DNA from: a virus
Taxonomy: Duplodnaviria; Heunggongvirae; Uroviricota; Caudoviricetes
Direction: 5' to 3' (one strand)
Virus record (IMG/VR): IMGVR_UViG_2718218135_000001
Span: 1 to 64,000 of that record
DNA length: 64,000 nt
The notes under the pieces are model-generated. The model saw nothing but the letters and a program-made list of their open reading frames with translations. It was not told the origin of the DNA and made no database searches. Made by a program: the position numbers and the translations under genes. Position 1 is the first letter of the stretch. Every line of letters starts with the position of its first letter. Positions 6 to 3,731 of this stretch are shown here, one piece after another.

Positions 6-3000
6 ATGGTCAGTCAAACCAATGAACAAGCATTAGAGTCGGCCATTGAGAAATGTCTGGCTGGGATCAGTACTGAAGAGCTCAAAGAGGGGCTGAGTCA
101 GCAGTCACTGGGTGCTGGATACTTCATTGGTGCTGCTAGTGACTTTAATATGCAATATGCCATTGATGAACGTTTTTTCTGGCAATTTCTGCAAAAGACA
201 CAAGAAGTAGAGTTGGCCAAACTGCAAAAGAACAACCCCTCAGATTGGCAACGTAAGTTACTCGAACGATTTGACCGACTGATTAAGAAGCATGGCATTC
301 TTCATTTACTTAAGAAAGGGCTAAGCGTAGACGATGCTCATTTCAATTTGCTCTATCCAGCCCCTTTGGCAAGTAGTAGTGAGAAGGTAAAGCAAAACTT
401 TGCAGATAACGTGTTTAGTTGTACTCGCCAAGTGCGCTATTCCATGGTAAATCCCCTACAAGAAATCGACATGGTATTGTTTATCAACGGAATACCCTTG
501 ATAACGCTGGAGTTGAAGAACGCATGGACCGGGCAAACAGCACGTTATCACGGCCAAAAGCAGTATCGAGATGATCGGGATGCAACTCAGCCATTGCTGA
601 CCTTTGGCCGCTGCCTAGTGCATATGGCGGTCGATACCGACGAAGTGTATATGACCACCAAGTTATCAGGTAGCAGTACATTCTTCTTGCCGTTCAATAA
701 AGGTCACAATCTTGGACAAGGCAACCCGCCGAATCCATCTGGCCATAAAACGGCATACCTATGGCAAGAAGTATTCACTAAAGACAGCTTGGCGAATATT
801 ATTCAGCATTTTGTGCGTCTGGATGGGTCAAGCAAAGATCCATTACCCAAGCGAACCCTGTTCTTTCCTCGATACCATCAATTGGATGTGGTGAGAAAAT
901 TAGTAGACCATGCCGCCCAGCACGGTGTCGGTCAGACTTACTTAATTCAACACTCAGCCGGTTCAGGTAAGTCTAACTCGATTACCTGGGCAGCTTATCA
1001 GCTAATTGAAACCTATCCTGCTTCGTCTGATGTGGCAGGCGGAAAAAGCTTGGAGCAGCCGTTGTTTGACTCTGTGATTGTGGTCACCGATAGACGCCTA
1101 TTGGACAAGCAGCTGCGGGATAACATTAAAGAGTTTTCTGAAGTAAAGAACATTATTGCCCCAGCGAATAAGTCTTCTGAGCTTAAGCAGGCGCTGGAGA
1201 ATGGCAAAAAGATTATTATAACGACGATTCAGAAATTCCCGTTCATTATTGATGGTATCGCCGATCTTAGTGACAAGCGCTTTGCAGTGATCATCGATGA
1301 AGCACACAGCTCACAGTCTGGTTCGGCGCATGACAATATGAACCGAGCGATGGGCAAGTCTGAAGTCGAAGAGGCAGAAGATGCTCAGGATAAAATCCTT
1401 CAGGCGATGAGATCGCGTAAGATGCGCGGGAATGCGTCGTACCTGGCATTTACAGCGACACCAAAAAACAGCACTTTGGAGAAATTTGGTCAACGCCAAG
1501 AAGATGGCTCTTACAAGCCGTTTCACTTGTATTCGATGAAACAAGCCATTGAAGAAGGCTTCATCTTGGATGTGCTGGCAAATTATACGACGTACAAAAG
1601 TTATTATGAGATTGAGAAATCAATTGCTGATAACCCTGAGTTTGATACCAAAAAGGCGCAGAAAAAACTCAGAGCTTATGTAGAACGAAGCCAGCAAACA
1701 ATTGATATCAAGGCAGAGATTATGCTGGAGCATTTTGTTCCGCATGTCGTGAATACGAAAAAGCTCAAAGGTAAAGGTAAAGGAATGGTGGTCACTCAAA
1801 ATATTGAGGCGGCCATTCGATACTACAAAGCGATAAGGCGAATACTTGAGGAGCAAGGAAACCCGTTTAAAGTTGCCATTGCTTTCTCAGGAACCAAAGA
1901 AGTTGATGGTATTGAATATACCGAAGCAGATATTAATGGTTTTGCCGAGTCAGATACCAAAGATATGTTTGATACCGATGAGTATCGACTTTTAGTGGTT
2001 GCTAACAAGTATCTGACTGGGTTTGACCAGCCTAAGCTTTGCGCCATGTATGTAGATAAGAAGCTCGCCAGTGTCTTGTGTGTTCAGGCGCTATCTAGGC
2101 TCAATCGCAGTGCACCTAAGCTAGGGAAGAAAACAGAAGACTTGTTTATCCTGGATTTTTTCAACTCGGTTGAAGATATTCAATCAGCATTCGATCCTTT
2201 CTATACAGCAACGTCATTGTCCCAAGCTACAGATATAAACGTACTGCACGAGTTGAAAGATGAAATGGACGATGTCGGTGTGTACGAGTGGTATGAAGTT
2301 GAAGACTTTGTGACGCGTTATTTCAAGAATGAAGACGCCCAAACACTCAGTCCAATCATTGATATTGCCGCAGCGCGGTTTGACCATGAACTAGATCTTG
2401 AAGCTGAAGCTAAAGTGGACTTTAAGATTAAAGCCAAACAGTTCGTTAAAATCTATGGGCAGATGGCTTCTATCATGCCTTATGAAATGGTCAGCTGGGA
2501 AAAACTGTTTTGGTTCCTGAAGTTTTTAATACCGAAATTGAAAGTGGAAGATCCCGATGCTGATGCTATTGATGAGCTTCTCGATTCTGTCGATCTGAGT
2601 TCATACGGTTTGCAACGTGTGAAGCTTAACCACAGCATTAAACTTAGTGACCAAGAAGCGGAGCTTGATCCTCAAAATCCGAACCCACGTGGGGTGCATG
2701 GCGATGAAAAAGAAACTGACCCGCTGGATGAAATCATTCGCACATTTAATGAGCGATGGTTCCAGGGCTGGAGTGCCACACCTGAAGAGCAAAAGGTTAA
2801 GTTCGTGAACATCGCTGAAAGTATCCGCAATCACCCTGACTTCGAATCGAAATACAAAAACAACCCAGATCCCCATAATCGAAATTTGGCCTTCGAAAAA
2901 ATGCTCAAGGAAATCATGCTGCAACGCCGTAAAGATGAACTTGAGCTCTACAAGTTGTTCGCAGGAGATTCAGCATTTAAAGCCTCGTGGACGCAAAGTA

Positions 3001-3023
3001 TGCAACGAATGGTGGGTAGGTAG
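6..3023 (+). CDS. hsdR: Type I restriction enzyme R-subunit-like protein (N-terminal PD-ExK nuclease + SF2 helicase)
   Basis: 1005 aa ORF; D-x13-LELK nuclease motif near residue 165-180; helicase motif [10 protein letters not shown], motif [14 protein letters not shown], motif III LAFTATP. Domain order (nuclease before helicase) fits HsdR rather than type III Res. Confidence 0.55.
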
Positions 3024-3029
3024 AAAGGA

Positions 3030-3731
3030 GTGATGGTTTGCTGAAGGCAGTCTCAGAGTTATTAGGTGGGTCACCAGGCCTGAAAGGACGTCAAATTGCC
3101 AAGGAGCTGGGGCTGGTCAGCTGTCAGCAGCCGACTCACCGGTATAAACGTGGTGGTCATGAACATGTTGCTATCCCTAACTACCTTGAACGGCAGTTCG
3201 CCGTGACCGAGCCAAATCAGGTGTGGTGCGGTGATGTGACCTATATCTGGACGGGTAAGCGCTGGGCGTACCTCGCCGTTGTTCTCGACCTGTTCGCAAG
3301 AAAACCAGTGGGCTGGGCCATGTCGTTCTCGCCGGACAGCAGGCTCACCATGAAATCGCTGGAAATGGCATGGGAAACCCGTGGTAAGCCCGGCGGAGTG
3401 ATGTTCCACAGCGATCAGGGCAGTCATTATACGAGCAGGCAGTTCCGGCAGTTATTGTGGCGATACCAGATCAGGCAGAGTATGAGCCGGCGCGGAAACT
3501 GCTGGGATAACAGCCCAATGGAACGCTTCTTCAGGAGTCTGAAGAACGAATGGATGCCGGTGGTGGGTTACGTAAGCTTCAGCGAGGCAGCTCACGCCAT
3601 AACGGACTATATCGTTGGATATTACAGCGCACTAAGACCGCACGAATATAACGGTGGATTACCCCCAAATGAATCGGAAAATCGATACTGGAAAAACTCT
3701 AACTCGGTGGCCAGTTTTTGTTGACACTTCA
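3030..3731 (+). mobile_element. IS3-family insertion sequence remnant (5'-truncated; orfA and start of orfB missing)
   Basis: Carries only the C-terminal DDE part of an IS3-type OrfB; right end at about 3731 (reverse complement tgaagtgtcaacaaaaactggccaccgag) resembles an IS911-type terminal inverted repeat as I recall it. Left boundary approximate. Confidence 0.7.
3038..3724 (+). pseudogene. IS3-family transposase OrfB, C-terminal catalytic fragment
   Basis: DDE integrase-core motifs [14 protein letters not shown] and [15 protein letters not shown]; ORF opens mid-protein with no orfA upstream. Confidence 0.8.

What the first reader, a model, noticed from the sequence alone, without database searches (positions are those of the whole stretch)
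6..3731. HsdR-like restriction subunit immediately abutting a 5'-truncated IS3-family element
The R-subunit-like gene ends 7-15 bp before the IS remnant. The IS lacks orfA and the start of orfB, so a deletion has occurred at this junction. Either the restriction gene C-terminus was remodelled by the IS event, or the IS was truncated by a later rearrangement. Whether hsdM/hsdS partners lie upstream of the window decides if a working type I system is present.
Basis: partly seen in the sequence, partly recalled or inferred. Interest (0 to 1): 0.45.

Follow-up and report, generated by a model that had tools for sequence, protein, structure and literature searches.

The report
Intact hsdR beside an IS911 remnant
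A complete restriction-enzyme gene on an SSU5-like phage-plasmid sits next to half of a dead insertion sequence (IS911); the restriction gene is undamaged and its partner genes lie just upstream in close relatives, so this is ordinary mobile-element scarring.

Summary
hsdR (6-3023, 1005 aa) is full length. 78 homologues from other species align end to end, and 47 stop at the identical residue. The same gene, with the same 77 bp after its stop codon, occurs at about 99.7% identity in 40 E. coli chromosomes and about 20 plasmids. In the relatives examined, hsdM, hsdS and a DUF4268 gene lie directly upstream.

The IS is IS911, but its DNA starts at 3104, not 3038. Bases 3024-3103 are the ribosome-binding site and first 22 codons of a native fifth operon gene. 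That gene encodes a wHTH plus GHKL-like ATPase of about 360 aa and is intact in Vibrio, Kangiellaceae and Methyloprofundus relatives. The junction lies inside a 13-nt repeat (GAGCTGGGGCTGG) shared by that gene and IS911 nt 620-632. A short-homology deletion there removed IS911 nt 1-619 and fused the two reading frames, giving the 228-aa ORF. IS911's right end (3731) abuts a truncated backbone gene.

The cassette plus remnant replaced about 1.5 kb of phage-plasmid backbone. RefSeq already annotates the gene, the remnant and the pseudogene. This is ordinary and of low interest.

The parts
6..3023 (+). hsdR, the type I restriction endonuclease R subunit. It is 1005 aa and intact, and matches WP_032187690.1 as inferred from 100% DNA identity to that record. 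Nuclease motif: D155...E169-x-K171. Helicase motifs: GSGKS 319, DEAH 431, TATP 483, QALSRLNR 694.
   Evidence: ORF. Pfam HSDR_N, SWI2_SNF2, ResIII, T1R_D3-like. TIGR00348 211.6 bits, below its 284.55 cut-off. PADLOC REase_I. Full-length alignment to 78 homologues. Motif positions. 100% DNA identity to NZ_CP022167.1, where it is annotated as the R subunit.
3024..3103 (+). Native cassette sequence, not IS. It holds the Shine-Dalgarno AAAGGAG (3024-3030), the TTG start (3038) and the first 22 codons of a fifth operon gene. In relatives that gene encodes a protein of about 360 aa with an N-terminal winged helix-turn-helix and a GHKL-like ATPase domain.
   Evidence: Identical in E. coli chromosomal copies. 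Continues as an ORF of about 360 aa in L011, L019, L056, L035, L037, L038 and L040. Weak HATPase_c and HTH hits. The Providencia L017 copy continues past the IS911 insertion point without an IS.
3104..3116 (+). 13-nt crossover repeat GAGCTGGGGCTGG. It is shared by the native fifth gene (codons 23-27, reading KELGL) and by IS911 nt 620-632. The deletion junction lies within it.
   Evidence: Three-way alignment of the window, chromosomal variant A and intact IS911. Positions, and a single occurrence in both IS911 and the window. About 0.002 chance matches of this length expected between a 143-bp and a 1248-bp sequence.
3104..3731 (+). IS911 remnant, nt 620-1248 of the 1248-bp element. It is the 3' part of orfB (DDE domain) plus the right inverted repeat. 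IRL, orfA, the frameshift site and the 5' part of orfB are missing. The IRR carries a 1-bp deletion (GTTGACACTTCA versus GTTGACCACTTCA).
   Evidence: Megablast hits to IS911 and ISEc52 copies start at query 102-105 and end at 732. Alignment to the intact IS911 of strain EC1. Difference list. RefSeq annotation 'IS3-like element IS911 family transposase, missing N-terminus' in the identical plasmid.
3038..3724 (+). Chimeric 228-aa ORF. The first 22 codons of the native wHTH gene are fused in frame, through the shared KELGL codons, to IS911 OrfB residues. It has its own SD and start codon, and no terminator-like site separates it from hsdR.
   Evidence: ORF and translation. rve domain complete (2-102 of 102). 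No terminator or promoter consensus in 2800-4000. Expression was not tested.
3732..3835 (+). 3' fragment (about 105 bp) of the phage-plasmid backbone gene homologous to SSU5_064 (DUF7238 family). Its N-terminal part is missing. Backbone homology resumes immediately at the IS911 IRR tip.
   Evidence: Alignment with SSU5 and the Enterobacter plasmid pFJMB80181_2. RefSeq pseudogene 'DUF7238 family protein, missing N-terminus'.

Best explanation
The window opens 5 bp upstream of the last intact gene of a type I restriction-modification operon. The operon is hsdM (807 aa), hsdS, a DUF4268 gene (PADLOC candidate PDC-S11) and hsdR. It is carried as cargo on an SSU5/pHCM2/pMT1-like phage-plasmid.

hsdR is complete and carries its nuclease and helicase motifs. 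By inference from family knowledge, it should act as the ATP-dependent translocase and nuclease of an M2S1R2 complex that cuts unmethylated DNA. Activity was not tested.

The ancestral cassette had a fifth gene after hsdR, encoding a wHTH plus GHKL-like ATPase. The inferred history in Enterobacteriaceae is:
1. IS911 inserted after codon 42 of that gene. This state is preserved in some E. coli chromosomes.
2. A recombination between a fortuitous 13-nt direct repeat (GAGCTGGGGCTGG in codons 23-27 of the gene, and at nt 620-632 of IS911) deleted 47 bp of the gene and IS911 nt 1-619. This left an in-frame gene stub fused to the OrfB catalytic domain.
3. The cassette and this IS911 remnant then entered the phage-plasmid as one block, ending at the IS911 right-end tip. 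The block replaced about 1.5 kb of backbone, from the 3' part of the SPFH lipoprotein gene, through the DUF2591 gene, to the 5' part of the DUF7238 gene.

The remnant has only one end and no orfA, so it is immobile. It has no effect on hsdR.
For: Shown:
- hsdR domains and motifs.
- C-terminus complete against 78 homologues.
- hsdM, hsdS and DUF4268 directly upstream in near-identical plasmids and chromosomes. Their domains are confirmed.
- hsdM and hsdR co-occur in E. coli complete genomes: 61 and 59 genomes, 57 each with at least 80% coverage.
- IS911 homology spans 3104-3731.
- The native fifth gene is present downstream of hsdR in 9 of 80 loci from other species and is full length in seven of them.
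- Chromosomal variant A has the native sequence running 47 bp further, then the IS911 left end in the same orientation. The Providencia copy continues without an IS.
- The junction lies inside the 13-nt repeat.
- Backbone order in SSU5 and an Enterobacter plasmid, and truncated SPFH and DUF7238 genes on either side of the block.
- The IS911-backbone joint occurs in 33 PLSDB plasmids. Those I could cross-check against the hsdR and hsdM hit lists carry the cassette or a remnant of it.

Inferred:
- The order of events.
- That the deletion happened in cis.
- Enzymatic activity.
Against: - The window itself does not contain hsdM or hsdS, and its source record was not found in the collections. The best match over 40-64 kb was 97-98%. 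Presence of the partners in this replicon is therefore by analogy.
- hsdR scores below the TIGR00348 cut-off and is only distantly related to solved HsdR structures.
- No copy with a complete IS911 at the variant-A position was seen, because it is cut by IS30 in all loci examined. The cis precursor of the deletion is therefore hypothetical.
- The left joint of the block has about 12 bp of unassigned sequence, and its mechanism is unresolved.
- The junction also occurs in some chromosomes (variant B), so the direction of transfer between plasmid and chromosome for that allele is not settled.
Confidence: 0.85

Rival explanations
1. The junction did not arise by a cis deletion in the donor. It arose by an intermolecular short-homology recombination between the native fifth gene and a complete IS911 already resident in the DUF7238 gene of the phage-plasmid. 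That single event would have created the hsdR-IS911 joint and placed the cassette in the plasmid. Chromosomal variant B would then be a later back-recombinant.
For: The uninterrupted junction is found only on plasmids: 13 E. coli complete genomes, all plasmids. Chromosomal variant B looks derived, because its remnant stops at IS911 nt 761 followed by the first ~160-190 bp of a group II intron. That is the same site at which plasmid pSLy3 carries the complete intron. This route would explain why the IRR flank is plasmid backbone rather than the rest of the fifth gene.
Against: No plasmid with a complete IS911 at that backbone site and without the cassette appeared among the 33 records that contain the joint. 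Variant A shows that an IS911 in the right orientation sat only 47 bp from the repeat in cis.
Confidence: 0.25
2. The IS event remodelled the C-terminus of HsdR, so the R subunit is chimeric or truncated and possibly inactive.
For: Only the proximity of the two ORFs (14 bp apart), and the absence of a Pfam domain hit for residues ~705-1005.
Against: Residues 1-1003/1005 align colinearly to 78 homologues from unrelated genomic contexts, and 47 have the identical end point. The stop codon and the following 77 bp are identical in copies lacking this junction. IS911 DNA begins 80 bp after the stop.
Confidence: 0.01
3. hsdR in this replicon is an orphan. The window's own plasmid has lost or disrupted hsdM or hsdS, so there is no working system.
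For: The window starts at hsdR, so its own upstream sequence is unseen. Degraded or rearranged versions do exist. NZ_CP086388.1 keeps only hsdM nt 1-1089. NZ_AP027538.1 has hsdM and hsdR about 35 kb apart on opposite strands. AR_0085 has an ISVsa5 insertion in hsdM.
Against: 57 of 59 hsdR-bearing E. coli genomes have a near-complete hsdR and 57 of 61 a near-complete hsdM. In each relative I examined, hsdM lies a few kb upstream in the same orientation. An R subunit without modification partners is useless, so an intact 3-kb hsdR ORF argues for recent selection. Window bases 1-5 match the DUF4268-hsdR spacer of the intact operon.
Confidence: 0.06
4. ORF 3038-3724 is a genuine N-terminally shortened IS3-family transposase gene whose own coding sequence begins at TTG 3038. 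On this reading the whole of 3038-3731 is IS sequence.
For: The reading frame is continuous from 3038, and the NCBIfam IS3 model aligns from residue 18.
Against: DNA identity to IS911 and ISEc52 starts at 3101-3104 in thousands of copies. Bases 3038-3103 are the conserved 5' end of a different gene in Vibrio, Kangiellaceae, Methyloprofundus and Providencia.
Confidence: 0.02

Closest known systems
Type I restriction-modification systems (HsdR/HsdM/HsdS). The closest solved R subunit is EcoR124I HsdR (PDB 2w00).
   Same: N-terminal PD-(D/E)xK nuclease, SF2 DEAH translocase motor and helical domain 3. hsdM and hsdS lie in the same operon in relatives.
   Different: It is only distantly related to EcoR124I HsdR (E = 6e-12 over residues 152-448) and falls below the TIGR00348 cut-off. 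HsdM is unusually long at 807 aa. An extra DUF4268 gene (PDC-S11) sits between hsdS and hsdR. The ancestral operon had a fifth wHTH-GHKL gene.
IS911 (IS3 family, 1248-1250 bp; orfA/orfB with a -1 frameshift)
   Same: 98.7% identity over nt 620-1248, including the DDE domain of OrfB and the right inverted repeat.
   Different: It lacks IRL, orfA, the frameshift site and the 5' part of orfB. The IRR has a 1-bp deletion. No target duplication is present. It is a dead remnant fused in frame to a foreign gene start.
Restriction-linked cargo genes inside type I loci, for example prrC between hsdS and hsdR in the EcoprrI locus (from my own knowledge of the literature)
   Same: A non-R-M gene (DUF4268, PDC-S11) occupies the slot between hsdS and hsdR. 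That slot is variable across the 80 related loci.
   Different: The cargo here is not PrrC and its function is untested. It lies outside the window.
SSU5-supergroup phage-plasmids carrying defence cargo (bioRxiv 10.1101/2025.09.12.675607)
   Same: The backbone is syntenic with SSU5. That survey reports R-M systems in SSU5-like phage-plasmids of E. coli and Shigella.
   Different: The survey does not describe this junction. IS911 is not mentioned in its main text.

Membership tests
Type I R-M, R subunit (HsdR) | N-terminal PD-(D/E)xK endonuclease domain | tested here: met
   Pfam HSDR_N at residues 129-222, E = 1.1e-13. D155, E169 and K171 are present.
Type I R-M, R subunit (HsdR) | SF2 DEAD/DEAH-box ATP-dependent translocase motifs | tested here: met
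   SWI2_SNF2, ResIII and DEAD hits. GSGKS 319, DEAH 431, TATP 483 and QALSRLNR 694.
Type I R-M, R subunit (HsdR) | Score above the curated family threshold (TIGR00348 hsdR) | tested here: not met
   211.6 bits against a cut-off of 284.55. It is a divergent subfamily. PADLOC REase_I PDLC03040 matches with E = 1.2e-41.
Type I R-M, R subunit (HsdR) | Full-length protein, C-terminal region complete | tested here: met
   Residues 1-1003/1005 align to 78 homologues. 47 end at the same position.
Type I R-M system (complete) | Adjacent hsdM and hsdS genes | tested here: inconclusive
   They are outside the window. They are present and intact directly upstream in the near-identical plasmids L001, L002 and L091 and in chromosomes L006 and L008-L010. 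Domains are confirmed. The window's own record was not recovered.
Type I R-M system (complete) | Restriction and methylation activity | not testable with these tools
   Needs a methylome or a phage or plasmid restriction assay.
IS911 / IS3 family insertion sequence (functional element) | Two terminal inverted repeats | tested here: not met
   Only the IRR is present (tip at 3731), with a 1-bp deletion. IRL is absent.
IS911 / IS3 family insertion sequence (functional element) | orfA and orfB joined by a programmed -1 frameshift | tested here: not met
   IS911 nt 1-619 are missing. No frameshift pseudoknot or other Rfam hit in 1-8000.
IS911 / IS3 family insertion sequence (functional element) | DDE (rve) catalytic domain | tested here: met
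   Pfam rve 2-102 of 102, E = 4.7e-32. NF033516 positions 172-368 of 369.
SSU5-like phage-plasmid | Backbone synteny with SSU5 (recA ... repA region; phage structural genes) | tested here: met
   88% identity over 3732-5300 to SSU5, with the same gene order. Iteron-flanked repA. Tail, portal and terminase genes at 40-64 kb.

The most novel reading that the evidence does not exclude
The chimeric ORF at 3038-3724 may be translated as the last cistron of the hsd operon. It has the native SD and TTG start, 22 codons of the wHTH gene and the complete IS911 DDE domain. If translated, it would yield a DNA-binding-deficient OrfB catalytic domain that could act in trans on IS911-family elements in the host, for example as a modulator. 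More broadly, this type I family may originally be a five-gene defence module (M, S, PDC-S11/DUF4268, R, wHTH-GHKL ATPase). Its fifth component would have a regulatory or effector role that the E. coli lineage has dispensed with.
Probability: 0.08. Interest if true: 0.4.

Novelty: already known. Interest (0 to 1): 0.12.

Why it matters
It matters little beyond correct annotation. The result shows that this phage-plasmid lineage most likely carries a complete, portable type I R-M system. That bears on how such elements compete with other phages and plasmids.

The IS911 scar is a useful lineage marker for a single acquisition event. That event is shared by about 33 PLSDB plasmids of E. coli, E. 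fergusonii, Shigella and Enterobacter.

Two details are not in the public annotation I saw:
- The 77-80 bp after hsdR are the stump of a conserved fifth gene (wHTH plus GHKL-like ATPase).
- The IS truncation happened at a 13-nt microhomology, producing an in-frame fusion ORF that can mislead ORF-based reading.

Tried and rejected
- Looked for the window's own record, to read upstream of position 1. The best E. coli RefSeq match over 40-64 kb was only 97-98%, so upstream content had to be inferred from relatives.
- Looked for a precursor plasmid with a complete IS911 in the DUF7238 gene and no cassette. None appeared among the 33 records carrying the IS911-backbone joint.
- Tried to define the cassette's native left end. 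Homology to the Vibrio and Kangiellaceae copies starts only about 165 bp upstream of hsdM. The E. coli-specific leader (TCATCTTAAATGACTC...) occurs only in E. coli loci. The ~12 bp between the truncated SPFH gene and the chromosome-shared sequence stay unassigned.
- Looked for the left end of the upstream chromosomal IS copy to test for a target duplication. No TGAAGTGG end was found.
- Considered composite-transposon or one-ended IS911 transposition for the acquisition. The right joint at the IRR tip fits this. The absence of the upstream IS copy, the lack of a target duplication and the 1.5-kb backbone loss do not. The question is left unresolved.
- Promoter, terminator and Rfam scans of the junction region gave nothing.
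- The large protein-database searches, structure prediction and fold search were not used, because the genome-contig scan already answered the completeness question.
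Full report
**What is in the sequence**

The window has an ATG ORF at 6-3023 (+) of 1005 aa, followed 14 bp later by a TTG ORF at 3038-3724 (+) of 228 aa.

The first protein carries the HsdR N-terminal nuclease domain, an SF2 motor (SWI2_SNF2, ResIII, DEAD) and the type I R domain 3. It matches PADLOC type I REase models and scores 211.6 bits on TIGR00348, below that model's cut-off of 284.55. The catalytic motifs are present: D155/E169/K171, GSGKS 319, DEAH 431, TATP 483 and QALSRLNR 694.

The second ORF has a complete rve (DDE) domain and matches the IS3-family transposase model only from model position 172 of 369.

**Context**

The first 6 kb are 99.7% identical to a set of IncFIB plasmids of E. 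coli, E. fergusonii, Shigella and Enterobacter. Downstream of the IS, the sequence is 88% identical to Salmonella phage SSU5 and to the pHCM2/pMT1-type plasmids of Salmonella, Yersinia pestis, Enterobacter and Citrobacter. Window 40-64 kb encodes tail, portal and terminase genes. The window is therefore an SSU5-like phage-plasmid.

**Are hsdM and hsdS upstream?**

The window begins 5 bp before the hsdR ATG, so this cannot be read directly. The source record was not in the collections; the best match over 40-64 kb was 97-98%.

In the near-identical plasmids pYUXYEH3934-1, pM160133_p3 (100% identical over window 1-3800) and pSLy3, the genes directly upstream are:
- hsdM (807-809 aa)
- hsdS (about 440 aa)
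- a 387-aa DUF4268 protein
- then hsdR

Pfam and PADLOC confirm HsdM_N plus N6_Mtase, the type I specificity subunit, and DUF4268 as PADLOC candidate PDC-S11. Among 5,426 complete E. coli genomes, hsdR is found in 59 and hsdM in 61. Each is near-complete in 57, and each is split about 40 chromosomes to 19-21 plasmids.

**Is the HsdR C-terminus complete?**

A scan of one genome per species returned 80 loci at 73-98% protein identity. They span Vibrio, Pectobacterium, Providencia, Pseudoalteromonas, methanotrophs, alphaproteobacteria and others. Almost all matches cover query residues 1-1003/1005.

Extending each match to its stop codon gave these results for the 78 complete homologues:
- 47 end at exactly the same position as the window protein
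- 7 are one residue shorter
- the rest are 1-9 residues longer

The stop codon and the next 77 bp are also identical in E. coli chromosomal copies whose further downstream structure differs. The C-terminus was not remodelled.

**What the IS is and where it starts**

The remnant is IS911. Megablast hits to thousands of IS911 and ISEc52 copies all begin at window 3101-3104 and end at 3731. Alignment with an intact IS911 from strain EC1 (1248 bp) shows several things:
- The window retains IS911 nt 620-1248.
- It differs by seven substitutions and one 1-bp deletion, which lies in the right inverted repeat.
- 3731 is the exact IRR tip.

RefSeq annotates the same stretch in the identical plasmid as an IS911 transposase pseudogene missing its N-terminus. 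It is followed by a DUF7238 pseudogene that is also missing its N-terminus.

**What lies between hsdR and the IS**

Bases 3024-3103 are not IS DNA. The E. coli chromosomal copies of the cassette sit in an IS-riddled island next to Ag43, CbtA/YeeU and antirestriction genes. There the same sequence follows hsdR.

In variant A (L006, L009, L010) it continues for a further 47 bp and is then interrupted by the left end of an IS911 in the same orientation (TGAAGTGGCACAC...).

Translated from TTG 3038, which has AAAGGAG seven bases upstream, it reads [42 protein letters not shown]. The same peptide starts an ORF immediately after hsdR in 9 of the 80 loci from other species. The ORF runs 358-377 aa in L011, L019, L056, L035, L037, L038 and L040 (Vibrio thalassae, MAGs assigned to Kangiellaceae, Methyloprofundus, Cellvibrionaceae and Thiotrichaceae, Desulfosarcina and others). 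That protein has an N-terminal HTH and a weak HATPase_c (GHKL) match.

In Providencia rustigianii the native DNA runs straight past the point where E. coli has IS911. The remainder of this gene is nowhere in the window or in the E. coli loci.

**How the junction formed**

The native gene contains GAGCTGGGGCTGG at codons 23-27 (KELGL). IS911 contains the same 13 nt at positions 620-632, also reading KELGL in orfB. The window is native up to and including the base before the repeat (AAGGAG, where IS911 has AAAGAG) and IS911 immediately after it. The crossover therefore lies inside the repeat.

In variant A the two repeats would be direct and about 680 bp apart. A short-homology deletion would then remove 47 bp of the gene plus IS911 nt 1-619 and give exactly the window's structure. 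About 0.002 matches of 13 nt are expected by chance between these two sequences. The repeat is thus an unlikely coincidence, and once present it would favour this deletion.

No terminator-like site separates it from hsdR. Whether it is expressed is unknown.

**How the block sits in the phage-plasmid**

In SSU5 and in an Enterobacter plasmid the backbone order is recA, membrane protein, SPFH lipoprotein, DUF2591, SSU5_064 (DUF7238), 065-068, repA.

In the window's lineage the arrangement differs:
- The SPFH gene is cut after about 180 bp.
- The DUF2591 gene is gone.
- Only the last ~105 bp of the DUF7238 gene remain, at window 3732-3835.
- The block hsdM-hsdS-DUF4268-hsdR-stub-IS911 remnant lies between them.

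The right joint is exactly at the IRR tip. The left joint is outside the window. It has about 12 bp that I could not assign. From there the sequence is shared with the chromosomal island, where at that very point an upstream IS911-family copy ends with its IRR.

The IS911-backbone joint occurs in 33 PLSDB plasmids. Those I could cross-check against the hsdR and hsdM hit lists carry the cassette or a remnant of it. This points to a single acquisition.

The uninterrupted hsdR-IS911 junction is found only on plasmids among complete E. coli genomes (13 of 13). Some chromosomes (variant B: L007, L008) carry the same junction, but there the remnant stops at IS911 nt 761 followed by the first ~160-190 bp of a group II intron. 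Plasmid pSLy3 has the complete intron at that same site.

I could not decide between two routes:
- The junction arose in cis in a donor and then moved.
- It arose by intermolecular recombination with an IS911 already in the plasmid.

Both are listed, and the searches that would discriminate them are given under next steps.

**Comparison with what is known**

By domain content and operon partners this is a type I R-M system, though a divergent subfamily:
- It falls below the TIGR00348 cut-off.
- It shows only E ~1e-11 to 1e-12 to EcoR124I HsdR over residues 152-448.
- HsdM is long, at 807 aa.
- Across the 80 loci the hsdS-hsdR spacer is a variable cargo slot. DUF4268 is full length, or nearly so, in about 18 loci. 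Other or no inserts occupy the slot in the rest.

From my own knowledge, this recalls prrC in the EcoprrI locus.

R-M systems in SSU5-supergroup phage-plasmids of E. coli and Shigella have been reported in a recent survey (bioRxiv 10.1101/2025.09.12.675607). DUF4268 has been noted as a domain associated with GmrSD-type restriction enzymes (PMC4619093).

**Verdict**

The objects are real, but the IS starts 80 bp, not 7-15 bp, after hsdR.

The arrangement is ordinary mobile-element scarring around an intact, already annotated type I restriction gene. The only additions are the identification of a truncated fifth operon gene and the 13-nt microhomology that explains the junction.

Noticed in passing
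L002 4829-5992 (outside the window, directly upstream of window position 1): A 387-aa DUF4268 protein sits between hsdS and hsdR. It matches the PADLOC phage-defence candidate PDC-S11 end to end (E = 1.8e-182). Across the 80 related loci this hsdS-hsdR slot holds DUF4268, other inserts of 1-4 kb, or nothing.
   Followed up: partly
L011 10037-11119; L056 8587-; L019 10071- (downstream of hsdR in other species): A conserved gene of about 360 aa (N-terminal wHTH, C-terminal GHKL-like ATPase; only weak Pfam hits) follows hsdR in 9 of 80 loci. It is the gene whose first 22 codons survive at window 3038-3103. Its function is unknown.
   Followed up: partly
window 3245/3246 (IS911 nt 761): This position is the insertion site of a group II intron (ltrA) in related copies. 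The intron is complete in plasmid pSLy3 (L091 about 9312-11572). It is truncated in chromosomal variant B (L007, L008) and also present in the upstream IS copy of the chromosomal island. The site is unoccupied in the window.
   Followed up: partly
window 4947-5550 and 6636-7151: Arrays of ~19-21-bp iterons (core ACTCACTACAGTGGATA) lie on both sides of the Rep3-family repA (5551-6606, minus strand). About seven copies in the opposite orientation lie at 4947-5339. This is a typical iteron-controlled replicon.
   Followed up: no
L001 ~6880-6930 versus L002 ~875-900 (upstream of hsdM, outside the window): A 24-bp unit (GCGATTCAGTCTATTAAACCTGTG) in the hsdM leader is present once or twice in different copies of the cassette. 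Next to it is a short palindrome, AGTCATCTTAAATGACT, at the cassette's left boundary.
   Followed up: no
L001 4006-6348; L005 2846-5188 (outside the window): The phage-plasmid recA homologue carries an intein with a LAGLIDADG homing endonuclease in some relatives (2343 bp). It lacks it in SSU5 and pM160133_p3 (about 1075 bp).
   Followed up: no
NZ_AP027538.1, NZ_CP086388.1 and NZ_CP029741.1: Degraded or rearranged versions of the cassette exist. In one, hsdM and hsdR are about 35 kb apart on opposite strands. In another, hsdM is cut at nt 1089, close to the IS911-backbone joint. In a third, hsdM is split by ISVsa5.
   Followed up: no
hsdS in L001, L002, L006, L008, L009 and L011-L090: hsdS is by far the most variable gene of the cassette. 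It is 30-54% identical (one short partial match reaches 73%) across species, while M and R are 66-98% identical. The E. coli copies carry several different HsdS proteins. This is consistent with swapping of target-recognition domains.
   Followed up: no
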